Part shown: piece after piece, positions 8,001 to 41,726 of the stretch
How positions within the stretch are numbered: position 1 is the stretch's first letter
Layout: each line of letters starts with the position of its first letter
Assembly (NCBI GenBank): GCA_035292445.1
Contig: DATDQB010000013.1
Span: 82,132-146,131, forward strand
DNA from: Candidatus Omnitrophota bacterium
GTDB taxonomy: Bacteria > Omnitrophota > Gorgyraeia > Zapsychrales > Zapsychraceae
DNA: 64,000 bases
Direction of reading: 5' to 3'
The notes under the pieces: generated by a model
What the model saw: only the letters and a program-made list of their open reading frames with translations
Database searches by the model: none
What the model was told of the DNA's origin: nothing
Translations under genes and position numbers: made by a program

Positions 8001-11000
8001 TAACTGATCGAAAGCTTCCTGGCCATGCTCGGCTATAAATTCTTTTACAGCAATGTCCGCCGAAATCGAATCGCCGGGATCAGGCTGTTCTCCCCAACCA
8101 AAAGCCGGGAACAACCCGTCCAATTCCTGTAATTTTGAAATGACTTTATAATCCGTAAAACCTAACTCGGACAACAATCTGGGAACCGCTTTATTGCCCG
8201 ATCCGTTAAATGCCGAAAAGCCGATTCTTAAATTACCCGCTTGTTTTTGAACAACATCATTATCAATAATAAATTTTTTGACCTGCTCCGCATGCAACGT
8301 ATGCATGTCAATTAAATTGCCCGGCCTGCTGACATCAACTCCTTTATAATCCTTACCGTCAACGGGTGTTGCTCCGCCCAGCCATATTAATCGGCCCTCA
8401 CCAGCTTCTTCTAATGCTTTTAACTTGATATCAGCTACCGTTGTAGCATTGATAGCTTTTAAAACTTCATTCTTCATGCTTTGGGGTAACTGGGCTCCCG
8501 TGTTGTTGGTAATTTTATATCCATTGTACTGGCTTGGATTATGGCTGGCTGAGATAAGAATGCCGATATCCGCCCGAACAGCTTGTGTTGTGACACCAAA
8601 AGATAATTCCGGGAACGGGCTTGCTTCATCAAACAAATAAACAGTAAATGGATAATCCTCGCTAGACTGCCCAATAAAACTTTGTGCGATCATCTCGGCA
8701 AACTGCTCACCGGCGATCCGGCTGTCAAAGCCAATGGCGACTTTATGAAATCCGTTTGCTTTCATGTAATTGATGACACCCGCGGTGTATCGTAAAAGAA
8801 CAATATCATTGATCGTATTCGGCCCCTTCAGGATACCTGCGCCGGGCCCATAGGTTTTAAGCTCACGTAATTCATCCTCCGTTAACGCCGCTAATCCCCG
8901 AATACCAGCGGTTCCGAAGACGATATTTTGCCGAAACACTTCAACTAAATCCTTCCATCGCTCTTCCTGTATCGCTTTCAGTATTGCCACCTGTGTTTGT
9001 GGAGAAATCCTCTCGATATCAGGATTCGTTGCCCAAGCTTGGAGGTTGGGAAATGTTTCAGCAAGGGCTTTATTGAATATTTCATCGGTGATCCTTCCTT
9101 CACTATGTTGTTCTCTTAAGTAGTCCTCAATGCTACCTTTTGCAGAAGCAACCACCGAATTTCGACTCACCAGCATTGCGCGATCGGGTGAAAAGATCTC
9201 AACCTCACCTTGCTGATCAATCTTTAGACTGATATTTCTTAGAATCAATCTCCCATCATCGGTTTTCTCAAAAATACCTGCATATCGAGCATCATTAAGG
9301 TCAACTATTTCTTTAAATTCACTGGCAATCGTGACACTCCCTTCCAAGACCGCTCTTTGTAAATGCACCCGGCCGGCGATGCTTAATTCATCCAAATTCG
9401 TCATATCCGTGCCATCTAAAGCCCGAATGGCATTTTCCACATCCTCATAATACGGATCCATTGCTCCAAACCCCGGAAGATGCGGCGCGGCATTGTTGAC
9501 TAAAACACCGTTTGCGGCATCCACGCTAAAATGACCGGTGTGCGCATAAAGAATATGATCAAACGCGTATTTGGTCGGGGTAAAAAAATTGGTACGGTTT
9601 TGCGGGTCAACATTAACCATATAAAGAAGCCGCTTAAAACCATATTTGTTGTCCTCCAACAAAGCGCGCACCCTCTCGTCATCGGTCGTAGTCACAAAAG
9701 CATTTAAATTTAAAAGAGCCGAACCCATGGCTCCCTCCAACTGTTTAACGCTTCGCCCCTCTTTTATTTTTGAATTACCAATCAAATCAGGCGTAACAAT
9801 CTCATTAAATTTCTCGCGGCCGATAATCTCCAACAAATCTTTTAAGAAAGGCTGAAGCACGCTGTAATTCATAACAGCGACATTGGTATTAAAAAGCTGT
9901 CCGCCAGGCTCTCCTTGCGTTAAACCCATCTCATAAAACAGCTGTTTTTGCTCGTCAGTCACTTGAGCTAATTCAAGGATTTGCGGTGCCGACTTGCCAT
10001 TAGGCAGCACTTGCCGGCCCAATTGTCCTCCCTTTTTATCCAACGGCGTTTTAGTGGTTGTAATCATAACAATAGGGATTTTATTAGTGACCATCCAGCC
10101 AATAATATAATTGTCGGGAACATTGTTGACCCCATCACCGTTATAAACGCTGCGGATTAACGCTTGGCCGTCTGTTGGTAAATCGACCGTTAAAGCGTCC
10201 TGTAAGGCCATTGAACCTAATTGCCCATGCCCGCCCGGTGCCGTAAAATCAGTGGTTAGCTCACCCGTTTCGATATCGATGACGGGTAATGAAGCCTGTT
10301 CAATCATGCGTTGGCCAAGTTCTATGCCCGGCGTTTCCTCAATCACCTGACGATAAGTTCTTCTTTGCGAAGCGGGAATAGATTGGTCGATACGGTCAAA
10401 TAGATAAATCGTTTCACCAAGAAAATGCGTCATTGGGCCGATACTCTCTTCATTAACCAACTCTTGAATAACCAAATTGGCGAATTGACCCTGTTGGGCG
10501 GCTTTAATGGCTCGAATATATTTTAATTCTGTGATGCTGACCAATTCCGTAACTGTTATGGGTTGGCCGCTTTCATCATGTCCTTGCATCTGCACTTCAA
10601 AGAATAAATCCATTGATTTGGCGCCTAACTGAGACCGTCCCGTAAGTCGCAGTAAATAATCTTTGCGTTTAACGCTCGTTCCCAAACCACCATCCATCGG
10701 ATTGGCCAAAACAATTGATTGCGCCGCGGCTTGTGCGTAGGCAGGGTTATCAGCAATTTGCGTCGTATAGCCCATTTCCCCTAATTCTTCTTTTCTTTGA
10801 TCAGAAGTCAATAAAGCAGATGGAAAAAAATTACCGCCAATCTTCAATGATTGCTCTTGTTGTGAAGAGCTTTTCGAGCGGACATATTTAGCGTAAAGAC
10901 CCGCCATATAGGAACGATCGAACCCAGCCAGGCCTAATGGGGCAACAAAGGCTTCAAATTCGGCTAGTGAAAGCATCGCCCGGTCGGTAGGAGCGCTGGC

Positions 11001-12530
11001 CTGCAATCTCTCTCTGGCCCGGCCGAGCCTTAATATATCGTTGGCAAACTGGGTAAGCTTTTCCCTGGCCTGTCTTCTGACCTGGGCATTCCCTTCACGT
11101 GTGTCTCTTTCGGCTAGCAGGGCGGCGGCTTCGATCCTGGCGGTTAATCCATCGATTTCTTCAAGGTTATAACGGTTCTCTCTTAGACCCCGCCGCTCCT
11201 GTTGTGTTAAAGTATTATCTGCCAACATCGACTGGTCGGAACCAATAGTAGCCATAGCTCCCGTTGCCCTTTGTGCCTCGGCAACACCGTTTATTCCGAC
11301 CTCGTTCAAGGCAACCGTTACGCGCTCTGTTTCTCCGTGGTCAACCACGGCGGCAACAAAATCCGTAACTCTGCCGCGCTGCTCTGGCCTTAAAACCTCC
11401 TGGCTTGCTTTAATACTCTCGAAACTCATCATCGCCCGGTCAATAACGTATCCGCCGGAGAAATATTTGCGCGGGATCACCTCTTGGGTGGCGGGGTCGT
11501 AATCTTCCTTGATATATTCATAAACGCCTGTCTTGAACGCTTCCAGATATTGGCTGTAAATCTTCTCTTTAATGGACTTATCCTCAATATCGATGCCGAC
11601 AATTTTGTTCTGGTCGACATACACTTGGCCCAAGAGGGATTCTTTCAGATTCTCCTTGAACCAGATCGCAAGAAGCAACGAATTCGTGATCTGTCTTAAG
11701 GCGGCAAAGGTCTTGCCTTCATTGACTTCCTTTTCAATTTCGGGGATCAAGACCTCGCGAACGACCTGGGAGCTGACCTCATTAATGGCCTCGACATCTT
11801 TGTTGGCCAGCATGTCGGTGCCGAACTTTTCGCTGCCGATATTCTCCTGTAACGCAACGTAATCCTCTTCCAGCATGACGCGCATGTGGCTTTCGATGAC
11901 ATACGCCGTTCCCTGATGTTCATAAATGGTCGCTTTATCCGGCAGGATCCAAACTTTATTGAAGGTGTTAACAGGAATATCTTTTGTCCCGTACAACTCA
12001 AAAGCCTTCTTGTAAACACGATCCCAGAACTCTTTGCCCAAGTCTTTTTCCGGATAGATCAATGAAGCGGTCAATTGTTTCAAGATATAATCTTGGGCCA
12101 AAAGATCGCGGCCCATCTCCGTTTGGCCGAATTTTTCCGAGATGATCCGGTTCTTTTCATAAGGGGAAAGGTTGACCCACAGCTCATCTTCGGGAACCGT
12201 TAAGGAGGCCATGAAATATTTGATGAGCTTGTTGGCCTCCATGCGTAACTCTTCGCCTTCTATCTTGTCATCACCTGTATTGACCAAAAAATCGAATTGC
12301 AAAGGATTTTCGGGATTAAGCGTTAGACCGATGATCATGGCAGGCGTATAACCCGGGCTCACGGAAACCATTGTTCCGGGTGCGGGAAGATTCAAAATGG
12401 TTTGCGGATTGATCTGGGCGAAACTGGCTTGCGGCGGAAGAATGAGGCTTGAAATAAATGAAGCGGAAATAAGAACCGAAAGGAGCTTTCTTAAAAATGA
12501 ATTTTCGCAGGTATGCAGGTACTTAAACAT
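5097..12530 (-). CDS. Giant multi-module secreted protein, paralog B (2477 aa): signal peptide, conserved N-module, UDP-sugar pyrophosphorylase-like module, phosphohexomutase module, unknown module, two CheY-like receiver domains, conserved C-module.
   Basis: A 7.4 kb uninterrupted ORF. The N-terminus MFKYLHTCENSFLRKLLSVLISASFISSLILPPQASFAQ looks like a signal peptide. UDPGP-like motifs: NPMDGGLGTSVKRKDY and ITTTKTPLDKKGGQL. Alpha-D-phosphohexomutase motifs: IVFGTAGIRG and SASHNPSQYNGYK. Two REC domains: EILLVEDNAG...ILTDLNMP...VILMSGD and RRVLVVDDEAS...VLSDIVMPDETG...KVQLMSGY. The C-terminus is VGGIDLNPALLDLQIKRDDKGIPLP...GFIPIIINVTPVTNLPLLLG. Confidence 0.85.
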   Translation of the reverse strand: MFKYLHTCENSFLRKLLSVLISASFISSLILPPQASFAQINPQTILNLPAPGTMVSVSPGYTPAMIIGLTLNPENPLQFDFLVNTGDDKIEGEELRMEANKLIKYFMASLTVPEDELWVNLSPYEKNRIISEKFGQTEMGRDLLAQDYILKQLTASLIYPEKDLGKEFWDRVYKKAFELYGTKDIPVNTFNKVWILPDKATIYEHQGTAYVIESHMRVMLEEDYVALQENIGSEKFGTDMLANKDVEAINEVSSQVVREVLIPEIEKEVNEGKTFAALRQITNSLLLAIWFKENLKESLLGQVYVDQNKIVGIDIEDKSIKEKIYSQYLEAFKTGVYEYIKEDYDPATQEVIPRKYFSGGYVIDRAMMSFESIKASQEVLRPEQRGRVTDFVAAVVDHGETERVTVALNEVGINGVAEAQRATGAMATIGSDQSMLADNTLTQQERRGLRENRYNLEEIDGLTARIEAAALLAERDTREGNAQVRRQAREKLTQFANDILRLGRARERLQASAPTDRAMLSLAEFEAFVAPLGLAGFDRSYMAGLYAKYVRSKSSSQQEQSLKIGGNFFPSALLTSDQRKEELGEMGYTTQIADNPAYAQAAAQSIVLANPMDGGLGTSVKRKDYLLRLTGRSQLGAKSMDLFFEVQMQGHDESGQPITVTELVSITELKYIRAIKAAQQGQFANLVIQELVNEESIGPMTHFLGETIYLFDRIDQSIPASQRRTYRQVIEETPGIELGQRMIEQASLPVIDIETGELTTDFTAPGGHGQLGSMALQDALTVDLPTDGQALIRSVYNGDGVNNVPDNYIIGWMVTNKIPIVMITTTKTPLDKKGGQLGRQVLPNGKSAPQILELAQVTDEQKQLFYEMGLTQGEPGGQLFNTNVAVMNYSVLQPFLKDLLEIIGREKFNEIVTPDLIGNSKIKEGRSVKQLEGAMGSALLNLNAFVTTTDDERVRALLEDNKYGFKRLLYMVNVDPQNRTNFFTPTKYAFDHILYAHTGHFSVDAANGVLVNNAAPHLPGFGAMDPYYEDVENAIRALDGTDMTNLDELSIAGRVHLQRAVLEGSVTIASEFKEIVDLNDARYAGIFEKTDDGRLILRNISLKIDQQGEVEIFSPDRAMLVSRNSVVASAKGSIEDYLREQHSEGRITDEIFNKALAETFPNLQAWATNPDIERISPQTQVAILKAIQEERWKDLVEVFRQNIVFGTAGIRGLAALTEDELRELKTYGPGAGILKGPNTINDIVLLRYTAGVINYMKANGFHKVAIGFDSRIAGEQFAEMIAQSFIGQSSEDYPFTVYLFDEASPFPELSFGVTTQAVRADIGILISASHNPSQYNGYKITNNTGAQLPQSMKNEVLKAINATTVADIKLKALEEAGEGRLIWLGGATPVDGKDYKGVDVSRPGNLIDMHTLHAEQVKKFIIDNDVVQKQAGNLRIGFSAFNGSGNKAVPRLLSELGFTDYKVISKLQELDGLFPAFGWGEQPDPGDSISADIAVKEFIAEHGQEAFDQLDVLIGTDPDADRLGLIVKVPESQQQLFGKYRLLSANDLWTLLTWYRLMRKKELGLLENPQQHFVSLSHVTTDAIEEVAALFGVQALGEMLDVTGKENRGDYLSGRRAWVGMTYQAQYAERMRERGLTNEGSQEESNGYSIMGGPVAEGEILADDGHVNDKDGVFAGILALEVAAYAKERGTMIFELLDDIYMQIGHYATANKPLPRVGSFEGAEGITEKIKLLRKAQEWMQEANARAQTDNPWVLSGQRIIGAVEFKSGRYDAQHYEGFPDEGIRFFLDDEALEPGVPFTNSRNHITIRPSGTSQAIRFYTQITSNVTKEGIAEQKSQNFGLAERLALQAQVLLLSATDITKYIPMVETQLEALSSDVSTDSQVADAAMIGDQDFERARKLRATFYGVGVQDVPEVREQLLRFADIMKQYIAADRVLRGQTRGDRGAQKSSIENVYTKVSDIALDAQIQDDELLTTISEATRELESMDIQNVTEANLSVLRRPVELLNIRFIVKAYSEMVKKMGVILAQLGEELPLKEAVIPDSILVEREGVLRAVNERREFYVSHVGGRAFVYPIVFIIDVRQQTHFYYFDRDGNQRSVSGDSAMAAEVFGSADQAMVTGEILLVEDNAGLREDFKEMLEGLGYRVVVAQDGKIALDIIRANPTRFAGILTDLNMPRISGIALTRALADLRVADVNFPNIPVILMSGDFGAGDTASKELYRQAASPGDIKRVISKDEAFGETLRGFIEADFVHGDNAMVTRRVLVVDDEASVGNVARRILERAGYQVTVVSSAAEAREQLSQQEFVLVLSDIVMPDETGFSLADHVVRNHPGIKVQLMSGYYEGAPSAEVAGSSDYLGILAKPFTIVQLKGAVEGAIGPADGAQLAQDQGPVGGIDLNPALLDLQIKRDDKGIPLPMNQQPIQQMHIEGFIPIIINVTPVTNLPLLLGLGGEEEENEFGLNPDVQAKEPEKVSLLN

Positions 12531-12843: not shown

Positions 12844-12918
12844 CGTCCCTGTAGCTCAGGTTGGATAGAGCATTTGCCTTCTAAGCAAAGGGTCGCACGT
12901 TCGAATCGTGCCAGGGAC
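12844..12918 (+). tRNA. tRNA-Arg (anticodon TCT)
   Basis: Clean cloverleaf: acceptor GTCCCTG/CAGGGAC, D-arm GCTC-AGGTTGGATA-GAGC, anticodon stem TTTGC/GCAAA with loop CTTCTAA (anticodon TCT), T-arm GCACG-TTCGAAT-CGTGC, discriminator A. CCA is not encoded. Confidence 0.85.
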
Positions 12919-12999
12919 ATTCTTTCTTAGTATATGCTATGCCCTGCCCCGACGCGCTATTACATAGCGGTCGGGGTCCCGACCGAGGTGAAACCGAGC

Positions 13000-14172: not shown

Positions 14173-14250
14173 GGTGGGTGTAGCGCAGCTGGTTAGCGCA
14201 CAAGATTGTGGATCTTGTGGTCGCGGGTTCGAATCCCGTCACCCACCCCA
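14173..14250 (+). tRNA. tRNA-His (anticodon GTG) with genomically encoded G-1 and 3' CCA
   Basis: G-1, then acceptor GTGGGTG/CACCCAC, discriminator C, CCA encoded. D-arm GCGC-AGCTGGTTA-GCGC. Anticodon stem CAAGA/TCTTG with loop TTGTGGA (anticodon GTG). T-arm GCGGG-TTCGAAT-CCCGT with one G-U pair. Confidence 0.85.
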
Positions 14251-14588: not shown

Positions 14589-17500
14589 TTATCCTTTAAA
14601 TATCGCTATCCTATCCAACACATCCCTCAGCGTGAACTTGCGCATCGAAAGCGCTGGCGCTTTCTCTTCCTCATCCTGTGCCTGCTCGATCGGTTCATCC
14701 GGAATAAAATCTGCGATTCCCAACAGCATCGGCATATTATTGATCGGCGCGATGTTAATGATCACGGGAATAAACCCGTCAATATGAATATTTTGCAGCG
14801 GTTGCATCTCAACCGGCAGCGGAATGCCGCGGCCGTCGCGCTTAATTTGCAGGTTAAGAAGCGCCGGGTTCAAATCAATACCGCCGACCGGCGTTGTTTC
14901 TTGAGCTGTTACAGCTCTATCAATGCCGGCCGATGATGAGACGTCCTCTTCCTCTGAAGGAAAGTTGACAATTAATTGACCTTCCAAAAATTCACGGATA
15001 ATCCTTCTAAATTTAATCTCCCGCACCTTAAAATCTCTTGCCGAGTTTATGTGGGTTGCTCTTGTCAGATCTCCTTTTGAATAAAGATCCGGCGCATCTT
15101 CGCTTAGCGGGGTGCTCAATTCTTTACCATCAAGATAATGGATCAACCGGGCGAGGAGCCCGACGCGATCGCCAAATAATTCTTCATCGCCCATTTCTTC
15201 CAGTAAATCCTCGGCGATCTCCCAAGCTTCCGCAGGCGTCAGCATCGCGCCGTCGCCCTGCTCCGTCATGGCGGCATCGATGCTGACAATTGTATGATCG
15301 ACTTCCACCGGGAAGATCTCGGCTTTCAGTTCATTTCCAACGTTATAAATCTTAATCACCACGGATGTTTGGCCGCCTTCCGTTGCCTGCGTTCCAGTTT
15401 GACCAAAAACCCAATCATTGGCTATGACAGTAAAAATACCAACAACATCGCCTTTTACATCTTGTTCCGTAAAAAATTTTTGCCCATTAAGAATTGCTCC
15501 GGCATCACCATAGCTTTCCCGTATAACACGAAGCTCGGATGCCTCAGCTAACTTAAAATTATAGCGTTCGGAAAGGTCAGGCAATTCTTCTCCAGCAGCG
15601 TTTTTATTCATTTTGGCGTTATAAACCCGAACCCCGGCCACAGCGCCGATATATTTTGCGGCACCGGCAATCGCTAAGTTCATAAATCCTTCGGCCGAAC
15701 CGCCAACGGTTATAACTGTTTTGTGGACACCATAAGAACGCCCTGTTGCGGCCTCATAAAGAGCCGGTGTTAACGTCGCCCTTAACCCATGTGCAACAGT
15801 TCCATCCTGAAGCGTCTTTTGAACAACGCTCACACCTTGTATTCCATATTCTTGCTTAACCTCTTCAATGGCTCGTACAAAAGCAGTTTCTCGTTTACGG
15901 TTCATCACGATAATCTCTTCCTGAACTTGCGAGAGTTCTTGTCTACGAATAGCGGCCAAAAACTTAAGGTACGCCAAAATGCCTTCTTTAGGGTGAGCCG
16001 CATATAATTCAGGATCGTAAAGATGGTATTTTTCCCCACCCACTTCAACAGCGGCTGCCCTTAACGCGTCGGCATCTTCACCCACATTCGTAATAAACTG
16101 ATGAACGTATCCATCGGGGACGTTTCCTAAATCGCGCACACCGCGCCCGACAACAATATCGCTATTGGCTCCCGCCTCATTTTCCGGAGCTTCCTCCAAG
16201 GATCTGTTGCCAGAATTGGTGACAAACTGATTAGTCCCTTCGACCACGTCGATAATGGCATCAAGAATCGGATAATACCGGCCATTTTCGCTTAGGTAGA
16301 ATTCATCGCCACGGTCAATGGCCGCTTTAATGGCTTCGACTTCGTGTTGGATCAAGTTAGGCATAATGACTTCATTGGATTTTAAGCTTTCCGCCACTTC
16401 ATCCCGGCCGAAACCTTCGGAAACACGAACCATCATAATGATACCCAGTTCTTTGATAGTCCGTTCAAAAATCCTTTTGGCGAAACCATCGACCACATCT
16501 GTAATGGCCGTTTGCATTCTTTTTAATTCATCTTTGGCAATGGTTCCTTCTTTCCCCAAAACCATTATTGCTACTTCCGCAAATTCGCCCCTTTGCGTCG
16601 TTTGATGAAGTTGAGTAAATAACAATGCGATCTGCGTCCGCTGCTCAGATGTATCAGAGACACTTTTAACAACATCTAAAATTTTTTGATAAGCACCTCG
16701 TAAACCAAGAGCGGTTAATTTGGCGGCCGTGTGTGTTGTCAATATAACAGGCAACTCATCACGAATGGCGCGTAATCTCGTTGCTTCTTCTTTGTTTGGC
16801 TGTGCCGCCATCGCGGCGTCAAAATCCCTAATCATCTGCCCTAACTGTTCATTATCAATGTTGACCTGGACCATCCGGCCATAAACATCAACACGGGCAA
16901 CGAAGGCCTCAACGCCGATGCGCTCAATTAACGCATCGTACTCATCCATGACACCTAAGCTGGCTGCCTGGATCCTGAAGGAGGCGCGGACGAACTCGTT
17001 CTGCGCCGCTTGTTCGTTAACAAAATCCCCATTAAGGACCGTTAAAGCGGTCTCCTTGGAAGCCCTAGAGAAGGAAGCAGCATAGCGCCAAGGCGCTCCC
17101 ACCCGCTTCGCTTCTTTCACAATGGCATTTAAATTGCGGGCCGCCTGATCAGCGGTCTGCCCCCCTGATAAAAAGACAATCGTGCCTAATTCCGGAGGAA
17201 GACTATCCATATGCACGGCAACAGTCGCTCTAGCCACTTCTTCGGGTGTATCTTTAGGCGCTTTATCACCCGAGGTGACCATGCTCACTTTAATCGCGCT
17301 GCCTTTCAAATCAACCCCTAGGCGGCTGGCGGCTTCCGTATAAACCTTAAGAATACGCCTGTTCGCCTCTGCGCTGGCTTCAATATCATGAGAGCCTTTA
17401 ATCAACACCTCTGGCTCAGGCGTTGGGACCCTTCCTAATAACTGAACATCTAAAACATGTTGGGCCAACATCTCCATATTCGCTTCGATATTACGTTGCG

Positions 17501-20500
17501 TCGGAAGACCAGCATCTGTATCAATCGTAAATGTTTGACGGAATTTATCGGCATGAGATGTGGGTATCATATCCATAATCGCACGAAGGTTATCGATCCC
17601 CAAACCTTTTGGTTTAGAGAGCTTCTCGGGATCAAGGCCTTCACGGCTTGGCCGAGGGCTCTGTGTATCATCATCGATACCCCGATCAGTTTTATGGATA
17701 ATGCTTATCCCTCTTCCTTCCACGTGGGTGGCTAAAAGAGGCTTGTCTTCATCATCCACATAGCTGACGGATTCATCCTGGACAATAATGCCGCCAAAGA
17801 CATACTGGATGCCTGGGGCGGTATAGAACATCCTTCTCATTCTTTCGCGAAGAAGATAGTTCGCGCCGTCGACTTTATCAGCATCCGGATAAGCCTTTGC
17901 ATCCACTATCTTAAAACCGTATCTTTTAAGAAGTGCATTGCCTGTTGATGGAGACCCATCCGAAGCAAAGTAGTTACGGCCTCGCCCCGTCAGGCTTTGT
18001 ACTCTTTCACGAAGAAGGGTTTTTTGGACATCCGTCAACATCGCGTGATCTTCGTCTTCCGGGGGGTATTCCGAAATTGGTCTAGGCGGTAACACCTGGG
18101 TAGCGCCTGTGTCTAAATCATCTACTTCTTCCTGTTCTCCATCGACTACGGTGCCTACAGGGTTGGGGTCGCGGTTAATTTCATCCATTACTTGGAGCAA
18201 GCCTAAACCTAAACCTGAATTGACAATCAATGCTATAACGTCATCTTCACTACTCTCTCCCAATGAAAGAAGTCGATCATAGGCATCCTTGACCATGATT
18301 CTTCCAGCTAATAAATCTTCCAGAATTCGGTCAGCCGCCATCATGGCGCTGTCGCCAGAAAGCAATTGCTCACCCTGACCAATAAGACGATTGATTCGAG
18401 CTCTTTTTTCATTAAGCTCGGATGATCCCAATTCATCCGATAATTGGCCTATCTCCAAAAGAATCGCCCTTTGTCCAGCTCTCAATATATAGAGTTCGTT
18501 CTCGATGTCTTGTGCCGGTTCGGGATAAAAGGTTTCAGGTGCAGCGAAGCGCTCCTCAATGTGATCAAGGCTGACATCCTCCAAGGGAAAAGCGACCTCA
18601 TCTGCTCCTTCCAAAGGCCTGATGCGACTGATCGCTCTCTTGAGCAACCCTTCTATCGTATGTCGGTCGGTTGTAAGTTGGGCTATCTGTTGCGCAATTG
18701 AACTTCTTTCCTCTGGTCCATCTTTGAGGCTACGCTCCCTGGTCCTTAATTGTGTAATACGGGTTCTTACGCCTATCAAGGAAATTCGCAATTTGTTGAT
18801 AAGATCCGCCAATTCATTAACAGACAGATCATGTTGTAACGCCGTTTCTTTTTCTGCAATCTGTCTATGTATTTCTCCCATTAAATCATCTTTGGCTTTT
18901 AATCCGGCCCGGTCTTTCATGGTATCGCCTTTACCACCCTCAAATGATATGGCGGCAGTTTCCCCTATAGCAACCGATGTCATGAATTCCAGCCCTCTGT
19001 TGCCGGCAAAAACCTGCGGGTTGATCGACATGCCGCTTTTTTGCTTACGGCCGATCTCTTGCCACTGGGCCAGCCCGTCCATACCGTCCCTTAAATATCC
19101 CCCTTTACCGTCAGTCCCTTGCAAAAACTGCATGGTAGCGGCGTGTAGGAATGTGGATCCGCCGTAGGTGATAAAATTGAACTGGGAATATTTTCCCTGT
19201 TCCGGCAGAAATGCCTTTCTTTCTTCCGGCGTCATTAGACGACTCCCATCCTCGGTTTTGGCAAGCGGCCAATAAAAGGACGGCGACGTGTTATTTGCTT
19301 TTATTCTGGTTGTCGCATCCAGTAAACCCACGGCATCATCATGAGCTAGGTCTAACTCTTGAAGCGCTTTTAAGGCATATGAATAACTGTCCGGATCAAC
19401 TGGCCGGTTATTGTGATATGTTTCGATAATTTTCTCTACCTGAGTTTTAATTCGATCTCGAAAAGCCTGATCAAATCTTTCAAGAATTTCGTCATACCAG
19501 CCTTCGGCAAACAATAAGCGTCTGGCTTCCGCATCCAGGGCGGTTGACCACTGCTTGACTTCGCCAATATGCGGATGGTGCTGCTCAAACCAAGAAATGT
19601 CCGTATATGGCAAGGCTGATTTGGAACGGGCAATGGCCATTTCCATGCCGCTATTGATCATCCAAATGGTACGGCTTCTCTTCTCTACCGAACGGGTGAG
19701 CTGGAAATCCCATAATACGTTGATCGTGCCTGAGAAAGCTTCAGGCGCTTCATCCACCAACTGGATTTGACTGCTGTCGATGAGGCGAATTCCGATCTCT
19801 CTGGCCTTTGCTTTTACCAGATCGAAAAATCTTACGTCTCTTTCATAAGGTATAGCCGCAACAAAAGCTCTCCATTCTTCAACCGTCATACCAATCTTAT
19901 CCTGATTTGCGGCGATAGTTCTTGCCACAATTTCATCGATCGTCAAAAGATTGGCCATGATCTTCCATTGATTATGGACCTTTTGTAATTCGGAAGCCTC
20001 TAGCCCTGATTGATTGGCAGCCGTGATAACATCTTGATAGGTTTGGACCCTACCTTTGCTATCGTGAATCAAAGGTATATACTTCTGCCAGTCAGATCTA
20101 AACCGGGTGATTGTTGCCGCTATCTTTTCAGCCGGCATTTTTTTGGCAACCAGGTCTTTTTCCAATGCTTTGACTGCTTCTTCCAGACGTTCAGCTTCAT
20201 CGGCCTCAGTAACACCAAGAATAAATTTCTGATCACGTCCGTCATCATGGCCCGTGATCCATTCGGCCGATTCGGCATCGGTCCGGGCAACGATCAACGT
20301 ATTAAGACCCATGCGGTCAAACTCAAAACGGGCCTCAAGAAGTGTTTTGATCCAATGATCCGTACTATCGAGGACTTTGCCGCTCATATGCCCGCACATT
20401 TTACATCCGTGAGCTTGATCTTCAATGTGGACTGCGGCGATATGTGTTTCTTCCTCGCCCATTGACAGAACCCTTCGTGCCATCTCCTGGACCTTTAAAT

Positions 20501-23500
20501 GTCCTTCGTCAAAATCAACAAAGATAGGCACGTAGAAATCAACCGGTCTAACAAGAGAACGTTGTTCAGGCGTCATTTGGGCCCTGGCGATCTCCTGATA
20601 AATGGCATGCCATGTATTTAGCTTTGAGATCCTGGCAGCCAGTATACCCAAATAATCATATTGGTCCCGGGCACGGTCTCCTTTGCCTCTGAGCATTTGT
20701 GCATCCCATCCACCCAGATAATAGCCTTCAATATGCTTAAACAAATTCTGTTGCAGAAGAGCGAATATAATGCCGGATCTTTCTTTGAAAGCGTCATCGA
20801 TCCTTTCGTAATATTCCTGCTTTACATTCTCCATCATGGAGAACGAATCCTGAATAACACCCGTTTCAGCATCGATGAAGCCTAATGATGCTAAATGATT
20901 ATACAGGGCATCAACTTCATAATCATAAGCCACATCTAATAATTTTGTCTTTGTGATAGGTTCGGCTTGAAGAATTTCGGATACAGCCATGGCTTCGGCC
21001 ATCAATTCATTGCTAGGGCCGAAGGTATCGATGGATTTTACATCCCTGAAATACCTTCGCAGCTTGCCATTAAATTTCTCGGCCATATGGTTGGCGATCG
21101 ACCATGTTCTTAAAACAGGGCCTTGCGCAGCCGCGACTTTTTCTGCGCTCCAAACACGCTTGATCCAGCGGCCTTCGGCTCTTTGCTGGTTCCATCGCTC
21201 CTGCATGATTTGCGCTCGTTCTTCTAAAGAAGCCACCATCGCCGCATCGCCGCCCATGCGGGCAACCATGCCGCCTTCAGGTCCGGGTATATTCATCTGG
21301 GCAACTAACGCTTCATATCGCGCCAACACTTCAGGGCTAAGCGCCCCTGTGAAACGCTCTTTCCCCACCTCGATCATAGCCCACACGTCTCTTAATCGGC
21401 TTGAAACTGTCCCTTTCACATCTCCAAAGGTCGGCACCTCGTTATAGCGTTCTTCAGGATCTCTGGAACGGGCCCATTCCTCATCATTCTTGTCTTTTAT
21501 TTTTTCCCATCTTTTAATTAATCCCGCCAATTCATCTGGAAGTCTGGCAAGTTGCTCGATAGCCGATTTTCTATCCACACGATTGAGCTTATCGACACTC
21601 ACCTCTTTGCCTAAAAGAGCCGCTAAAAACGCTAATTCTTTCTCAGCCCTATCAAGATCCGCTTCTACTTGCGCTTCATACATCCCGCCTGGAAGCGCTC
21701 TGTCATATTGCGCTTTAAATCCTGCGACGCTCTGTAATAACCAATTAAAATACTCCTCGGCAACGGCCCTAGCATCCACCGCCATCGCCGCGTCACCTTC
21801 TTTGGGAGTTCCCTTCTGATCTCTCTCCCTCAATGACGCTATTATACCTCTCATATGTTTTTCAGAAGCAGCGGGTTCTTCCGGTACTAACTCACCACTT
21901 AAAGGATCTCCCCTGACAAACCTGGGTCCAAGTTCCGGCGCCCTATCTTTATCGCTGGCCGCCATCGCCGCGGCTGAAGTTAGTGAAGTTATCCTTTCCC
22001 GTATCTCTCGAATGGCCAGTTCGGTTTGTTCCTTTTCACCTTCCAGCCCCTCGACAATGACGACCTGATCTTGATATTCCACTAATTCATTTCCAATTTG
22101 TCCTAAACGCTTTTCCAGTTCTGCGATGGCACCTCGAAGCTCATCCGCCGTTCGGTATCCTTCCTCGCTGGTAAGAACGGCTTCTAAAATCCTGACCGCC
22201 CCCATCGCATTATCAATGCTGTCATCCCATTGCGCTCTTGTCCGATCAATTGTTTCCTCAAGCACTCTTTCCTCTTCCAATAAAGACGGTAAATCACCAA
22301 TGTCTCCATCTTCATATTTTGCTTTTTCTATTCTTTCTCTAACTTGAGCAAGTCGATCAATCGCGCGAAACCATTCTTTTTGGGCAGACTCATCCCCCAC
22401 CATCGCCGCGTCGATTGGTTCTTGAGAAGTCCCGCCTCTTTTTCCAAGGTGACCCATTTTTTTACGTTGAGTAAAAAGTATATCCCCTGCCGCGGCGTCA
22501 ACGGCCCGAAACATATTATCAAATGTTTCCCCATAAGCTAATTCGGCGATACGATGAGGATCCATCCGTAATTTATCCAATCTTTCAAATCCAACACTGT
22601 CCAAATTTTGTAGAATACTCGATTCAGGATAGTAGCTTCTTCTTCGCGAGTCATCGAAATCGGCTATTTTACTCAAAATATAACTGTTAGAAGCCTCTTC
22701 ACTTTGTAATCGATCTCTGAATCGGTATAAGACCCTCCTTCGCTCTGGCTCCATTAAACTTAAATAATCTAACGCCCTTGTAACTTTATCTCTTAACTGT
22801 AAATCATCAAACTGGGAAACAAAACGTTTTGCATTCTTCGGAAATTGATTACTAATACGCATAGCCCGAAAGTCTAGGGAAATCATACCTTCAATGACCG
22901 AATAGTCCTCAATCCTATCCAAAAGGATCCGTGTTGAGAAATAATCAGACAGGATCATAGCTTCAAAGATATCGGCATCCCTGTATCTTTCTGTTACCGC
23001 CATCGCCGCGTCGGTTTCCGCCACAGAGACAACCGTCTTTTCAACAAGTCTTTCTAAAGTCTCCGTAACTTCTTTAATTTTGCGTTGCAGGGGTCCTATT
23101 TTATCTTGATCATAAGCGGCAAGGGTTCTGAAGCTCAAAACGTCACCGGAACTGCGAGGTATTAAGATTCGGTAAAAGGTCTGAATCGCTTCTTGGGCTG
23201 TCGTTAAAGGTACATTTTGACCGCCTGAATCTCGAATGGCCCTTTGAAGCGTTTGAATCATCTCCAACAACCCAACCCCTTCTTCTCTGATTCTAGCGTC
23301 TTCAAAAGCTACTACCATTTCTTTAAGTTCTTCCAATTGCGCCGCCACCATCGCCGCGTCACCTTCTTTGGGAGTTCCCTTCTGATCTCTCTCCCTCAAT
23401 GACGCTATCATGTCTGTCATATGTTCTATAGAAGCAGGTTCTTCAGGTACTATCTCACCAGTTAAAGAATCTCTCCTGGCAACCCTGGGCCCCAATTCCG

Positions 23501-26500
23501 GCGCCCTGTCATCTGACTTTCCAGCCGCCATCGCCGTGTCGATATAATTCCCATCACGTAGCGCATTGGCTATTTTTTCAAGCTGCTCTTCAATAATTGA
23601 ATTTGACGCCTCCTCGCCTTGAGGATTAAAAGGAGCATACCCCGCAGCAACCGTTTGTAATCTTTCTTGCAAATTCAAAAGTTCTGCTCTCGTCAACACG
23701 CCGCTTTCCACTCGAATCTCTTCTTCCGGCGTCAACATCGCCGCATCGGCAAGCTGGAACGGAGCAAATAAAATTCGCCGATCATACAGGTTGTCCGCAT
23801 TATCGTGGATAGCAAAAAATCGTTTCAACTTTCTTTTTACATCAATTAATGTTCTGTCATCAAGGGTTGTGTTAAAAACAATGGATTCATGAAGCACCAT
23901 ATTCTTTGAAGTGATAATGCTTTTATTGATTTCTCTGGCAATGGCGATATCTTCATCGCTAAATCCCGATTCCATATATCTGGCCTGGGTATTTCTAGCG
24001 ACTTCATCCATAATTTGGCTTAAATATTCCCATGTAATGATTGTGCCTGTATCTGGGCCTTCCTGCACCTTGGCCCCCGATTTAATCAACGTCCACAGCC
24101 AATATTGGGCTTTCTTGGCCGTAGCTAAATCAAACATGGTTCTTCCGCCATTATGCAAGTTGTCTACGGCAACAGCCGCTCCTTGTTTTCGATAACCTAG
24201 CGTATATGTCAGCAGTTCATATAAGTTCTTATATATTTCAGCTCTCGCTATATTTCCCTCTGGAACATGTAATAAATCGGCATATAACCCTTCATTATAA
24301 ACAGGCGGCGCCACTTCCATTTCTTCAACATCGGCTCGGAAGATTTCGTTTTCTTTGGGAATGGCGATTGGTGTCGCTGCCCAAGCTTGAAGTTTGCCTT
24401 GTTTGCGTTCATCTATTTTGTCACCTATAAATCCTGTGGTAGCTATTTCATCCGCGGCCGGGTCCATCGGCGCTCCATCTGGATATCTGCGTGAGGTCAT
24501 TCCCGTCCACATGCCGCCTTCAGGATGAACACCGCGTTTTTTACTGGCCGATAAATTAAGGCCTGTATAAGGTCTAAACGGTTTGTCTTTCATGCCTATT
24601 TTATCCAATCCCGGCCATACGCGTTTCTTCAAAAACCAAGCGAGTCGTATCGCTGAAGCACCCCAATCCCAACGTCCATCATTCGAAAACTTGATATGAT
24701 GGCGGCCTGCCCAGAACATTAATTCCAGCATTAATGTCGCCTCTTCGACTTCATGCATAAAAATAAGATTGATCTCTTCTTTAAGACCTAAAAACTCCTT
24801 TGTTTCAATGGCCGTCTCCACAAACAATTTTACTTCTTCCCAATGCTCCAATTTCGGCACAACAATATCAATGCCTTGTCTCGGATCGGCTTCTAAAGCC
24901 TCGAAATTAGGTTCAACATAATACGCCAAGTCTCTCATCATCATTGATACCGGCATACCCTTATAGGATTCATGCCGTGACCACAATTGCAATCCGCTTG
25001 GCCTTTTTGTTACTGTCGGCCAATATTTCCTGGGTAATACTCTATAAATTTTATTTTTGTCTCCATGTTTTACGCTCTTGAGTCTTCCGTTAATAATATC
25101 GGCACCGATTTGGTGTTCGGCAAACCTTTTGTCACTATCTATTCCAGCGGCATCTTCATCGTCACCAAAGATTCTTACAGGTCTCATCGCTTCTATATAT
25201 TCAGCTATCGCTGGATTACCCTCAATAATTGCTATGATTTCTTCATCAGTTTTTTCCTTTAAACTTATTCCAAACTTCTTTTCCACTTCATCCAATACAT
25301 TTGACCCAAACGCACTCAAGGCAAAAAATAGATTCCATGGACCTGACAATATGCCGCCTGCTTTTGTTAACCTTTCTGGCGCTTCGTCGACTTTCCAATC
25401 CCCTTCTAATATTTCACGCACGGTCAAAGTATTTCCATACGCATCGCTCACCTTATCATCCATATTAGGAATATAAGAATTTTCTCCGCGCTCAGCCGCG
25501 TTTATTCTTTCCCCGCGTTTCTTTAATAACTCGAGCTGCCGCTCGCCGAACTTCTCCATTAAATGCGCTATTAATGCCTGGCTTCGCGGATTTATGATTT
25601 TTCCACTTCCGACATCTCCTTCAAATTCGCTTAAATCTACGGCCTGTCCTTTTTGATCCAACACCTCTCTAATATCTAAATCCTCTACGCCCGCCACCAT
25701 CGCCGCATCGCTGGTCGTCAGCAGCCGGATGTGATCAGGCTTATCTGAATAGTCATCGAATAGTAATGCCTCATTGCGGATGAACGGAACAATATAGGCG
25801 TGAGACGATTGGAACTGCACTTTCGGTTTAACGAGCATGATCTGGCCTTGATTCGCGGGGACATCTTCCCGGCGGAACACGGGCAGCTTATCAAAGTCAG
25901 GATGGACAACAATTCTTGATGCCAGAGAGCGCGCGACCCTTTCAATGATATCCTGGTATCCTTTTAAACGTTTATAGTCATCCGATATGGTTGGTATCCT
26001 GCCCAGAACAACATCTAATATGCTCCAGTAAATTTGATAATCAATAAGGTCTTGAGCTTCTCTGTAAACGGAATTAAACCTACCATTGACTTGACTGATG
26101 GCAGAGTGAACTCTTCGACGGACTATGGTAATGGTATTTAAATGGCCTTCCGTAATGGGAGTGATCCCGTGGCGTTCCGCCACCTCCAATAACTCCTTTA
26201 GATCATCCGCATTCGGCGGTTCTTCTCGCCATATTTCCGGCCTGCGCGCAAGACGCTGCTGGCGCTCAGCATCCGTTGCGGTGGACGGATCTGTAATGAC
26301 CGCCTGGTCGGCCAACCGGCTGCTAGCCTCATCGACCGCCAATTGGGCGCTGTCACCGGCAATTGTTTCTAATAAATCAACATCCGTATCAAAAAAACGG
26401 CCCGTGGGGGAAGAAGCATTGATAACCTGCTGTTGGACAGCCTCAGGAAATTGGCCTAAATCGCCTTCTATTTCGGCTACCAACATCGCCATGTCCCTGC

Positions 26501-31268: not shown

Positions 31269-31440
31269 TCCACCAGTCCTCGTTTATAGAAAACAATTCT
31301 TTTTTCTGGGAGGATTCACAAGAACCTTATCGTGGCAATGATTTTCTATGGTGTAAATATAACATTATTAATAATTACTGTCAATGAGGCCATCAGAGGC
31401 GGCGCCATAGAAAGATCGAGGACGAATATTATTTAAATGG

Positions 31441-31514
31441 TCGGGGCGGGGGGATTCGAACCCACGACCCCTTGCTCCCAAAGCAAGTGCGCTAGCCAGC
31501 TGCGCTACGCCCCG
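31441..31514 (-). tRNA. tRNA-Pro (anticodon TGG)
   Basis: The reverse complement folds with acceptor CGGGGCG/CGCCCCG, D-arm GCGC-AGCTGGCTA-GCGC, anticodon stem CTTGC/GCAAG with loop TTTGGGA (anticodon TGG) and a T-loop TTCGAAT. The T-stem has one non-Watson-Crick pair. Confidence 0.8.
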
Positions 31515-31605
31515 TTATATTTTTTGAATAGTGGCGCTTAGTATATCATTGGGTTTTGAAATTTGCAATTACTGTAAAATTACCCACTTATGCTATAATA
31601 CCGCC

Positions 31606-41608: not shown

Positions 41609-41726
41609 AATAGTACTATTCAAATTAATATTTATGGAAAGTAGTGCCCCTATTTTTATACAAGGAAAGAAAACTGTCAAGCTTCATTTAAGAATCCCCC
41701 TTTAAAACGCCTTTAATCCGAGCGGT

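What the first reader, a model, noticed from the sequence alone, without database searches (positions are those of the whole stretch)
15290..18040. Class I fructose-bisphosphate aldolase module and possible GlpX-like bisphosphatase module in gene C
Between D-x-A-M boundaries at ~18045 and ~16810 lies a module with class I aldolase motifs: GRGRNYFASDGSPSTG, AIKVSMVTSGD with the Schiff-base Lys, and IVFLSGGQTADQAARNLNAIV...PWRYAASFSRA. The next module (~16790 to 15290) contains TVGGSAEGFMNLAIAGAAKYIGAVAGVRVYNAKMNKNAAG and GIFTVIANDWVFG. This loosely resembles class II FBPase (GlpX) GIGGAPEGV blocks; that call is tentative. Aldolase plus FBPase after the ICL and malate synthase modules would be a gluconeogenic sequence within one polypeptide.
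Basis: partly seen in the sequence, partly recalled or inferred. Interest (0 to 1): 0.7.

Follow-up and report, generated by a model that had tools for sequence, protein, structure and literature searches.

The report
Fused sugar enzymes in giant protein
An uncultured Omnitrophota bacterium encodes a 4,332-residue protein with an export signal in which a real but divergent class I fructose-bisphosphate aldolase sits next to a divergent GlpX-type fructose-bisphosphatase-like domain; multi-enzyme proteins of this kind are already reported in this phylum, but why they would be exported is not understood.

Summary
Window 15279-18050 (minus strand) lies inside one 4,332-aa ORF (14589-27587).

- **Aldolase module (aa 3180-3589).** It is a class I FBP aldolase (PF00274, 132.7 bits). 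The Schiff-base Lys and 12 other active-site residues are kept. It is only 33-38% identical to any free-standing aldolase.
- **Second module (aa 3590-4103).** It gives no direct Pfam or PDB sequence hit. Its free-standing relatives pass the PF03320 threshold. Its AlphaFold model (pLDDT 91) matches only GlpX class II FBPases (E 6e-15 to 1e-10). Nine of ten GlpX catalytic residues are kept, and the class motif DGD is DGT.
- **Context.** In 24 other carriers, this module recurs with class II aldolase, TIM, PGK, PEPCK, ICL and malate synthase.
- **Family.** Four adjacent genes share a signal peptide, an uncharacterised N-domain, D-x-A-M delimiters and an uncharacterised C-terminal domain. Their mature parts have no cysteine except in the ICL catalytic loop.

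My best reading is that these are exported, probably active and possibly proteolytically processed enzyme modules of an Omnitrophota multi-enzyme protein. Two preprints already report such domains in Omnitrophota giant proteins. I rate this a new variant of a known kind, interest about 0.6.

The parts
14589..27587 (-). Gene C: one 4,332-aa ORF holding all the modules
   Evidence: The identical product is on 3 contigs of 2 ENA assemblies. Pfam finds MS_TIM-barrel, ICL and Glycolytic.
27474..27587 (-). Signal-peptide-like N-terminus (aa 1-38, ...ASVYA|QG)
   Evidence: Read directly from the sequence: a basic n-region (RRRNTRFHK), a hydrophobic core, and A-x-A followed by Q. A38 and Q39 are nearly invariant in 96 homologues. 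No signal-peptide predictor was available.
26496..27473 (-). Conserved N-terminal domain (aa 39-364, ends PRKYFSGG)
   Evidence: 1,465 homologues, and nearly all of those that a source names are labelled Omnitrophota or Omnitrophica. AlphaFold pLDDT 83. No solved relative. No Pfam or NCBIfam family.
24321..25007 (-). Malate synthase TIM-barrel match (aa 861-1089)
   Evidence: PF01274, E=1.4e-22.
20169..20744 (-). Isocitrate lyase match (aa 2282-2473). The catalytic loop GCKMCGH at nt 20382-20414 holds the only two cysteines of the protein.
   Evidence: PF00463, E=8e-37. Cysteine positions 2395 and 2398.
18039..18050 (-). D-H-A-M delimiter at the start of the aldolase module
   Evidence: The relative in L013 has D-L-A-I-L at the equivalent position.
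16821..18050 (-). Class I fructose-bisphosphate aldolase module (aa 3180-3589; Pfam core nt 16947-17849)
   Evidence: PF00274 132.7 bits. Best solved match 6rng, E=4.8e-29. Kept residues: D3210, S3212, K3299, D3301, K3348, R3350, E3391, E3393, K3433, S3474, G3475, S3505, R3508.
17289..17291 (-). Codon of the Schiff-base lysine (K3433 = Lys229 of aldolase A)
   Evidence: Alignment A4, in which the column is invariant. The aldolase A reference sequence was checked against PDB 6xmh.
16809..16820 (-). D-A-A-M delimiter between the aldolase and GlpX-like modules
   Evidence: L013 also has DAAM at the start of its GlpX-like module.
15279..16820 (-). GlpX-like (class II FBPase fold) module, aa 3590-4103, with a helical N-terminal extension of about 125 residues
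   Evidence: Homologues P0003-P0005 pass PF03320. AlphaFold pLDDT 91, pTM 0.92. The top 17 Foldseek PDB hits are all GlpX or F/SBPase, E 6e-15 to 1e-10.
16233..16250 (-). D-V-V-E-G-T (aa 3780-3785), equivalent to GlpX D85-P-I-E88-G-T90 (metal site and catalytic Thr)
   Evidence: Alignment A2 with E. coli GlpX. D, E and T are invariant in all 14 clade members, G in the seven-sequence alignment with GlpX.
15798..15806 (-). D-G-T (aa 3928-3930) where class II FBPases have D-G-D (E. coli D186-G-D188)
   Evidence: The IxDGD motif is described as conserved across the class and as binding the furanose hydroxyls (PMC10289334).
15243..15278 (-). Double delimiter D-A-A-M ... D-G-A-M at the end of the GlpX-like module
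14700..14885 (-). Conserved C-terminal domain GGIDLNPALLNLQIKRDG..GFIPVIINI..LLG (aa 4235-4296), followed by an acidic tail
   Evidence: Shared by genes B and D, by P0001 and P0002, and by many hits. Alignment A7. No Pfam, NCBIfam or PDB relative.
5097..12530 (-). Gene B, same family: UTP-glucose-1-P uridylyltransferase, phosphoglucomutase and two receiver domains; 7 D-x-A-M sites
1..4793 (-). Gene A, same family (first 1,597 of 4,030 aa): AprA-like methyltransferase and pyruvate phosphate dikinase domains
27900..31268 (-). Gene D, same family (N-domain and C-domain, no recognisable cargo)

Best explanation
Window 15279-18050 encodes two adjacent enzyme modules inside an exported multi-enzyme protein of an Omnitrophota bacterium. 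The first is a divergent class I fructose-bisphosphate aldolase. The second is a member of a divergent clade of the GlpX (class II FBPase) fold.

**Shown:**
- the homology of both modules;
- the fold of the second module;
- retention of nearly all catalytic residues in both;
- the recurrent association of the GlpX-like module with aldolases and other gluconeogenic enzymes in related proteins;
- the family architecture: signal peptide, N-domain, cargo modules separated by D-x-A-M, and a C-domain.

**Inferred:**
- Both modules are catalytically active.
- They act one after the other: triose phosphates to fructose-1,6-bisphosphate, then to fructose-6-phosphate or a closely related sugar phosphate.
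- The protein crosses the cytoplasmic membrane by the Sec route.
- The D-x-A-M sites are processing or linker sites at which a lineage-specific protease may free the modules, so that they can form their usual oligomers.

Where the substrates would come from is unknown. Possibilities are a prey cell, prey lysate or an envelope compartment.
For: **Aldolase.**
- PF00274 scores 132.7 bits, and solved aldolases match at E down to 4.8e-29.
- Thirteen active-site residues, including the Schiff-base Lys, are kept although overall identity is only 29-38%.

**GlpX-like module.**
- Relatives pass PF03320.
- The model has pLDDT 91.
- Only GlpX structures match. The next hit has E=0.1.
- D33, E57, D85, E88, T90, Y119, R166 and E213 are kept, and K164 is replaced by Arg, as in the M. 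tuberculosis enzyme (residue list from PMC5892879).

**Association in related proteins.**
- Of 24 other carriers of this module, 8 also have a class II aldolase, 4 PGK, 3 TIM, 2 PEPCK, 2 ICL and 2 malate synthase.
- The aldolase is the adjacent module in P0134, P0135, P0140, P0142 and P0129.
- A relative in another MAG has TIM, class I aldolase, ICL and the GlpX-like module.

**Export.**
- The signal peptide looks canonical, with a conserved A|Q site.
- All cysteines of genes A, B and D lie in the signal peptide.
- Gene C keeps only the two cysteines of the ICL catalytic loop, as does the L013 relative.

**Delimiters.**
- D-x-A-M occurs 15 times against 0.79 expected.
- It falls at module boundaries and at conserved positions in L013.
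- Other lineages use other short motifs at the same places.

**Literature.** FBPase, aldolase, TPI, GPI, PGM and PPDK domains have been reported in predicted extracellular parts of Omnitrophota giant proteins (bioRxiv 10.1101/2023.11.21.568195). A 'multi-enzyme metabolic' class has been described (bioRxiv 10.64898/2026.06.07.730766).
Against: - There is no biochemical, proteomic or localisation data.
- Sugar phosphates, acetyl-CoA, ATP and UTP are not expected outside the cytoplasm.
- The aldolase fails the NCBIfam equivalog cut-off (156.7 against 250). It has Gly for Glu34 and two insertions.
- The GlpX-like module gets no direct PF03320 hit.
- In the GlpX-like module the class-wide DGD motif is DGT, and this copy has Thr for Lys29.
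- Both parent enzymes normally work as tetramers. That is hard to reconcile with an uncleaved chain.
- No protease for D-x-A-M has been identified.
- Single-cargo proteins (N-domain, GlpX-like module, C-domain) exist, so the pairing with an aldolase is not obligatory.
- No signal-peptide predictor was run.
Confidence: 0.55

Rival explanations
1. The enzymes face the cytoplasm. The N-terminal hydrophobic segment would be only a membrane anchor, and the chain would be the organism's own membrane-tethered gluconeogenic or glycolytic machinery.
For: - The substrates and cofactors of all modules are cytoplasmic metabolites.
- West-Roberts et al. warn that an overlooked transmembrane helix could give the wrong localisation.
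- Hexose-entry steps are patchy in complete Omnitrophota genomes, and glyoxylate-shunt KOs score 0/176. Embedded modules could therefore be the only copies.
Against: - Basic residues precede the hydrophobic core, and an A-x-A|Q site follows it. This is the orientation and form of a cleaved Sec signal.
- There is no convincing internal transmembrane segment that would return the chain to the cytoplasm.
- The mature parts lack cysteine, whereas cytoplasmic enzymes in the same window have 0.3-0.8%.
- The conserved C-terminal domain looks like a sorting or anchoring element.
Confidence: 0.15
2. The modules are no longer enzymes. They would be exapted folds used as binding, adhesion or scaffold domains on the cell surface, like 'moonlighting' surface aldolases in pathogens.
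For: - Divergence is strong: identity to any aldolase is at most 38%.
- The aldolase fails the NCBIfam equivalog cut-off.
- PF03320 does not hit the second module.
- Both modules carry insertions, and the second has a helical extension of about 125 residues.
- Giant Omnitrophota proteins are generally discussed as attachment factors.
Against: - Catalytic and metal-binding residues are almost fully kept in both modules and across the clade.
- The only cysteines kept in 4,332 residues are those of the ICL catalytic loop, here and in L013. This indicates selection for catalysis.
- Co-occurring modules form a coherent pathway set rather than a random set of folds.
Confidence: 0.12
3. The second module is an active phosphatase of the GlpX fold but not an FBPase. 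It would act on another sugar bisphosphate or phosphate, so the pair would not be aldolase followed by FBPase.
For: - The class-wide IxDGD motif, which binds the furanose hydroxyls, is DGT in the whole clade.
- Lys29 is Thr in this copy.
- Some GlpX relatives are dual F/SBPases, and these are among the top structural hits.
- The module also occurs alone between the N- and C-domains, or next to PEPCK.
Against: - The 6-phosphate triad Tyr119, Lys/Arg164 and Arg166 is kept, together with the metal and Thr90 sites.
- The most frequent partner is an FBP aldolase, of either class.
Confidence: 0.2

Closest known systems
Class I fructose-1,6-bisphosphate aldolase (PF00274; e.g. human or rabbit aldolase A, bacterial FBA-I)
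   Same: - The match covers about 300 residues.
- Lys229, Glu187, Glu189, Asp33, Lys107, Asp109, Lys146, Arg148, Ser271, Ser300 and Arg303 are all kept.
   Different: - Identity is only 29-38%.
- It scores below the NCBIfam equivalog cut-off.
- Glu34 is Gly.
- There are two insertions of about 13-15 residues.
- It has no cysteines.
- It is embedded in a 4,332-aa chain that carries a signal peptide, rather than being a free cytosolic tetramer.
Class II FBPase GlpX (PF03320; E. coli GlpX, M. tuberculosis and F. tularensis FBPaseII, cyanobacterial F/SBPase)
   Same: - The fold is the same: TM-score 0.65-0.72 normalised to the target, E down to 6e-15.
- The D-x-x-E-G-T metal and threonine motif is kept, as are Asp33, Glu57, Tyr119, Arg166 and Glu213.
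   Different: - There is no direct Pfam hit.
- Structure-based identity is about 14-16%.
- DGD is replaced by DGT.
- It has an N-terminal helical extension of about 125 residues and several insertions.
- The clade is found mostly as modules of 1,000-5,700-aa proteins.
Omnitrophota giant multi-enzyme proteins ('Archaeovorins', West-Roberts et al. 2023 preprint; 'multi-enzyme metabolic clusters', Nielsen & Lui 2026 preprint)
   Same: - Same phylum.
- Signal peptide.
- Many unrelated metabolic enzyme domains tile one chain.
- FBA, FBPase, PGM and PPDK domains, and receiver domains, are explicitly reported in those proteins.
   Different: - The protein has 4.3 thousand residues. This is below the 10,000-aa length cut-off of Nielsen & Lui's catalogue and the 30,000-aa scale of the proteins West-Roberts et al. 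discuss.
- It has no array of transmembrane helices and no HEAT, glycosyltransferase or dockerin content.
- It is defined by N- and C-terminal 'bookend' domains and short delimiters. I did not find these features described in the papers I could read.
Bifunctional fructose-1,6-bisphosphate aldolase/phosphatase of archaea and deep-branching bacteria (class V FBPase; cited from my own knowledge, not tested here)
   Same: The two consecutive gluconeogenic steps are physically coupled in one polypeptide. This would pull triose phosphates towards hexose phosphate.
   Different: That enzyme uses one domain and one remodelling active site. Here two unrelated domains, a TIM-barrel aldolase and a GlpX fold, are joined. 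There is no sequence relationship.
Polyproteins with short conserved cleavage sites (e.g. viral polyproteins; analogy only)
   Same: A short motif (D-x-A-M; D-x-A-L-L or S-S-P-[IVL] in other lineages) recurs exactly at module boundaries and varies by lineage.
   Different: Cleavage has not been shown and no protease is known. The motif could instead be a linker or a docking element.

Membership tests
Class I FBP aldolase (PF00274) | Pfam PF00274 score above the gathering threshold | tested here: met
   132.7 bits against a cut-off of 22.2, E=1.8e-38, profile positions 42-329 of 349.
Class I FBP aldolase (PF00274) | Schiff-base lysine (Lys229 of aldolase A) | tested here: met
   K3433, within AIKVSMVT. 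The column is invariant in alignment A4.
Class I FBP aldolase (PF00274) | Other catalytic and substrate-binding residues: Asp33, Lys107, Lys146, Arg148, Glu187, Glu189, Ser271, Arg303 | tested here: met
   All are kept: D3210, K3299, K3348, R3350, E3391, E3393, S3474, R3508. Glu34 is Gly, where bacterial homologues have Gln or Glu.
Class I FBP aldolase (PF00274) | NCBIfam equivalog NF033379 (functional equivalence by NCBI's cut-off) | tested here: not met
   156.7 bits against a cut-off of 250.
Class I FBP aldolase (PF00274) | Aldol cleavage or condensation of FBP; homotetramer | not testable with these tools
   Requires an enzyme assay and a measurement of oligomeric state.
Class II FBPase GlpX (PF03320) | Pfam PF03320 score above the gathering threshold | tested here: not met
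   The module gives no hit at E<=10. P0001 scores 16.8 bits, below 27. The free-standing relatives P0003, P0004 and P0005 score 43-50 bits and pass. Fifteen of 24 carriers hit at E<1e-5.
Class II FBPase GlpX (PF03320) | GlpX fold (two alpha/beta domains forming a five-layer sandwich) | tested here: met
   The AlphaFold model has pLDDT 91 and pTM 0.92. The 17 best PDB matches are all GlpX or F/SBPase, with probability 1.00 and E 6e-15 to 1e-10. The next hit has E=0.1.
Class II FBPase GlpX (PF03320) | Catalytic set Asp33, Glu57, Asp85, Glu88, Thr90, Tyr119, Lys/Arg164, Arg166, Glu213 (PMC5892879) | tested here: met
   D3700, E3724, D3780, E3783, T3785, Y3827, R3897, R3899, E3966. Asp61 is probably D3729 under an alternative gap placement. 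That is my reading of the alignment, not a tool result.
Class II FBPase GlpX (PF03320) | IxDGD motif (Asp188), which binds the furanose hydroxyls | tested here: not met
   The module has LQDGT. Thr replaces Asp188 in the module and in all five clade members aligned with E. coli GlpX. The motif is described in PMC10289334.
Class II FBPase GlpX (PF03320) | Mn2+/Mg2+-dependent, Li+-sensitive hydrolysis of FBP | not testable with these tools
   Requires an enzyme assay.
Omnitrophota multi-enzyme giant proteins | Encoded by Omnitrophota | tested here: met
   Sources label the N-domain homologues Candidatus Omnitrophota or Omnitrophica. Most related genome loci are Omnitrophota MAGs.
Omnitrophota multi-enzyme giant proteins | Several unrelated metabolic enzyme domains in one chain that has a signal peptide | tested here: met
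   Malate synthase, ICL, FBA-I and the GlpX-like module. The signal peptide was judged by eye and by family conservation only.
Omnitrophota multi-enzyme giant proteins | Length of 10,000 aa or more, with many transmembrane helices and HEAT or glycosyltransferase content (as catalogued in the two preprints) | tested here: not met
   The protein has 4,332 aa. One borderline hydrophobic window lies at aa 3116-3134. There are no HEAT or glycosyltransferase Pfam hits.

The most novel reading that the evidence does not exclude
Genes A to D would encode exported pro-proteins that are cut at D-x-A-M sites into free, active enzymes. Together these would form an extracytoplasmic or prey-delivered gluconeogenic route. 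It would run from C2/C3 units (isocitrate lyase, malate synthase, pyruvate phosphate dikinase), through aldolase and the GlpX-like FBPase, to hexose phosphates and UDP-glucose (phosphoglucomutase, UGPase). In this way an epibiotic or predatory Omnitrophota cell would rewire or harvest its prey's carbon.
Probability: 0.12. Interest if true: 0.9.

Novelty: new variant of a known kind. Interest (0 to 1): 0.6.

Why it matters
If these modules are active outside the producer's cytoplasm, central carbon enzymes are being used as secreted or delivered tools. That would bear on how ultra-small epibiotic or predatory Omnitrophota feed on their hosts.

The family gives concrete handles for experiments:
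- defined module boundaries (D-x-A-M);
- mature sequences without cysteine;
- two uncharacterised 'bookend' domains with more than 1,400 homologues;
- a distinct GlpX clade (DGT instead of DGD) whose substrate can be tested.

There is also a caution for annotation. Pathway surveys that use strict thresholds will miss these embedded, divergent enzymes. Glyoxylate-shunt KOs were scored 0/176 in complete Omnitrophota genomes, yet ICL and malate synthase modules exist here.

Tried and rejected
- **Direct searches with the second module.** Pfam, NCBIfam and PDB sequence searches found nothing. A six-sequence profile gave only weak GlpX hits, E 0.008-0.06. The question was settled through homologues and structure.
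- **Internal translation starts at the D-x-A-M methionines.** I rejected this. True gene starts are preceded by A/T-rich, sometimes Shine-Dalgarno-like sequence. The internal ATGs are preceded by GC-rich GAC-GCG-GCG with no consistent ribosome-binding site.
- **C-terminal domain profile against the PDB.** Nothing was found.
- **Close relatives of the aldolase module in other giant proteins.** The word-based search returned only free-standing aldolases. One related module (29% identity) was found later in L013.
- **The search for related loci with the 14-sequence alignment.** It failed for lack of a conserved stretch. It worked with the 6-sequence alignment.
- **Kizina et al. 2022 (PMC9004380).** This paper on the cultured relative is not held.
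- **Assembly artefact or chimera.** I rejected this.

Full report
**What is there.** The finding lies inside a single uninterrupted ORF, 14589..27587 on the minus strand, of 4,332 aa. The identical protein is found on three contigs from two ENA metagenome assemblies. The longest is 149 kb, so this is not an assembly artefact.

- The D-x-A-M boundaries are DHAM at nt 18039-18050, DAAM at 16809-16820 and DAAM at 15267-15278.
- The motif occurs 15 times in the protein, against 0.79 expected from residue shuffling.
- It occurs twice in 9,703 aa of the unrelated proteins in the window.

Pfam on the whole protein finds malate synthase (aa 861-1089), isocitrate lyase (aa 2282-2473) and class I aldolase (aa 3247-3546).

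**Aldolase module (aa 3180-3589, nt 16821-18050).**
- On its own it scores 132.7 bits on PF00274, against a cut-off of 22.2.
- It matches 44 solved aldolases, the best being Arabidopsis FBA6 at E=4.8e-29.
- In that alignment, which also includes five bacterial class I aldolases, these residues are all kept: Asp33, Ser35, Lys107, Asp109, Lys146, Arg148, Glu187, Glu189, the Schiff-base Lys229 (K3433), Ser271, Gly272, Ser300 and Arg303. Glu34 is Gly.
- The module is nevertheless very divergent. Its nearest relatives among 5.8 billion proteins are ordinary aldolases of about 335 aa, at 33-38% identity.
- It carries two insertions.
- It fails NCBI's equivalog cut-off, 156.7 against 250 bits.

**Second module (aa 3590-4103, nt 15279-16820).** Direct Pfam, NCBIfam and PDB sequence searches find nothing.
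- A homologue search gave two multi-module relatives at 46-48% identity and three further relatives at 36-38% identity, two of them free-standing proteins of about 440 aa. All three of the latter pass the PF03320 (FBPase_glpX) gathering score with 43-50 bits.
- An exhaustive profile search found 71 cluster representatives at E<1e-30. Most are proteins of 1,000-5,700 aa.
- An AlphaFold model built on 14 sequences is confident, with pLDDT 91 and pTM 0.92.
- Its 17 best matches in the PDB are all class II FBPases or F/SBPases, at E 6e-15 to 1e-10. The next hit is at E=0.1.
- I aligned it to E. coli GlpX, taken from NC_000913. Against the catalytic list of PMC5892879, the module keeps Asp33, Glu57, Asp85, Glu88, Thr90, Tyr119, Arg166 and Glu213. 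It has Arg for Lys164, as M. tuberculosis does.
- Asp188 is Thr in the whole clade, and Lys29 is Thr in this copy.
- Asp188 belongs to the IxDGD motif. That motif is described as conserved in the whole class and as binding the furanose hydroxyls (PMC10289334).

The module is therefore a GlpX-fold phosphatase that looks competent for catalysis. Its sugar specificity may differ from canonical FBPase.

**Comparative context.** Among 24 other carriers of the GlpX-like module, the co-resident Pfam families are:
- class II FBP aldolase (8), PGK (4), TIM (3);
- ICL, PEPCK, malate synthase and PGM (2 each);
- GAPDH, PPDK, DeoC, GPI, adenylate kinase and UGPase (1 each).

In P0134, P0135, P0140, P0142 and P0129 the class II aldolase is the neighbouring module. 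In P0132 and P0133 the neighbour is PEPCK. A relative in MAG contig JAUIER010000029.1 (L013; its GlpX-like module is 56% identical) carries TIM, class I aldolase, ICL, the GlpX-like module and the same C-terminal domain. It has D-x-A-M at the same module boundaries. The phosphatase module thus recurs beside aldolases of two unrelated classes. This is the best available argument that the pair works as aldolase followed by bisphosphatase. The pairing is not obligatory, because proteins with only the N-domain, the GlpX-like module and the C-domain also exist (L004, L005, L006, L014).

**The family and the organism.** Residues 1-364 have 1,465 homologues, and nearly all of those that a source names are labelled Omnitrophota or Omnitrophica. 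Four consecutive minus-strand genes in the window share the following features:
- a signal-peptide-like start with a conserved A|Q site;
- this N-domain, ending in PRKYFSGG;
- variable cargo;
- a C-terminal domain of about 60 residues, GGIDLNP..IKRDG..GF.PVIIN..LLG.

| Gene | Coordinates | Length (aa) | Cargo |
|---|---|---|---|
| A | 1-4793, runs off the window | 4,030 | AprA-like methyltransferase, PPDK |
| B | 5097-12530 | 2,477 | UGPase, PGM, two receiver domains |
| C | 14589-27587 | 4,332 | malate synthase, ICL, FBA-I, GlpX-like |
| D | 27900-31268 | 1,122 | none recognisable |

Neither bookend domain has a Pfam or NCBIfam family or a solved relative.

In genes A, B and D, every cysteine lies in the signal peptide. 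Gene C has only Cys2395 and Cys2398, both in the ICL catalytic loop GCKMCGH. The L013 relative likewise has only the two cysteines of GCKKCGH. Cytoplasmic enzymes in the same window have 0.3-0.8% cysteine. I read this as a signature of export combined with selection to keep catalysis.

**How it most likely works.**

Shown:
- two homologous enzyme folds with intact active-site residues;
- a recurrent gluconeogenic module set;
- the architecture of export signal, bookend domains and delimiters.

Inferred:
- The chain is exported by the Sec route.
- The modules are active.
- Aldolase and the GlpX-like phosphatase act in sequence.
- The D-x-A-M sites, with conserved positions -3 and -1 and a variable -2, are processing sites for a lineage-specific protease. 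Other lineages have D-x-A-L-L or S-S-P-[IVL] at the same places.

Internal translation starts are unlikely. The main difficulty is where phosphorylated substrates and cofactors would come from outside the cytoplasm. Prey cytoplasm or prey lysate is possible, because the one cultured Omnitrophota, Velamenicoccus archaeovorus, is described as a predatory epibiont (abstract listed). Nothing here tests that idea.

**Rival readings:**
- a cytoplasm-facing, membrane-tethered version of the cell's own metabolism;
- non-catalytic scaffold or adhesin domains;
- a GlpX-fold phosphatase with a substrate other than FBP.

**Comparison with what is known.** West-Roberts et al. (bioRxiv 10.1101/2023.11.21.568195) already list FBPase, FBP aldolase, TPI, GPI, PGM and PPDK-like domains in predicted extracellular regions of Omnitrophota 'Archaeovorin' giant proteins. 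They also raise the question of cleavage. Nielsen and Lui (bioRxiv 10.64898/2026.06.07.730766) define a 'multi-enzyme metabolic' class among proteins of 10,000 aa or more, and report 94% with a signal peptide or transmembrane helices. The general phenomenon is therefore known.

I did not find the following described in the papers I could read:
- this mid-size family, defined by the N- and C-terminal domains;
- the D-x-A-M delimiters;
- the cysteine pattern;
- the DGT clade of GlpX;
- the ICL and malate synthase modules, although the same preprint scores the glyoxylate shunt as absent in 176 complete genomes.

**Verdict.** I rate the novelty as a new variant of a known kind, and the interest at about 0.6.

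Noticed in passing
window 44016-45263 (+): A 415-aa ORF with 61 cysteines (14.7%) and no Pfam hit. It lies next to an RsmB-like methyltransferase gene.
   Followed up: no
window 20382-20414 (-); also genes A, B and D: The only two cysteines in the 4,332-aa gene C product are in the isocitrate lyase catalytic loop GCKMCGH. In genes A, B and D, every cysteine lies in the signal peptide. The relative in L013 shows the same pattern.
   Followed up: partly
window 23361-23534 and 21795-21968 (-): An internal repeat of about 57 aa in gene C (aa 1352-1409 and 1874-1931, 73% identical). Each copy ends ...RERDQKGTPKEG, directly before a DAAM delimiter.
   Followed up: partly
window 41727-43037 (-) and 40049-41680 (-): An Rce1-like (CAAX/CPBP) intramembrane protease with TPR repeats sits beside a secretin gene. 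D-A-A-M resembles a C-a-a-X box with Asp in place of Cys. This is an untested lead for the delimiter protease.
   Followed up: no
D-x-A-M codons throughout 14589-27587 (-): The alanine before the Met is encoded by GCG in 13 of 15 sites, against 31% GCG overall. Asp is encoded by GAC in 9 of 15 sites, against 27% overall. The delimiter may therefore be constrained or homogenised at the nucleotide level. This is unexplained.
   Followed up: partly
window 12845-12919, 14174-14250, 31438-31514: tRNA-Arg(tct), tRNA-His(gtg) and tRNA-Pro(tgg) genes lie between the four family genes. Two DUF748/AsmA-like envelope proteins are also there (13087-14058 and 31531-34632).
   Followed up: no
window 1-4793 (-) and 5097-12530 (-): The neighbouring family genes carry PPDK with an AprA-like methyltransferase (gene A), and UGPase, phosphoglucomutase and two response-regulator receiver domains (gene B). 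Together with gene C, this looks like a route from C2/C3 units to UDP-glucose.
   Followed up: partly
L013 46-8340 (+) (JAUIER010000029.1): The related protein has TIM, class I aldolase (234.8 bits), ICL, the GlpX-like module and the C-domain. Its first residues look like the end of yet another aldolase, so the ORF is probably broken by a sequencing error in this low-coverage MAG.
   Followed up: partly
L004, L005 (4603-7767), L006, L014: Minimal family members consist only of the N-domain, the GlpX-like module and the C-domain, about 1,050 aa in total.
   Followed up: partly
P0006-P0125 (N-domain homologues): Other lineages have different short motifs after the N-domain and between modules, for example S-S-P-[IVL] and D-x-A-L-L. 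Precomputed cargo Pfams include ribosomal protein S9, PGK, PGM and ankyrin repeats.
   Followed up: no
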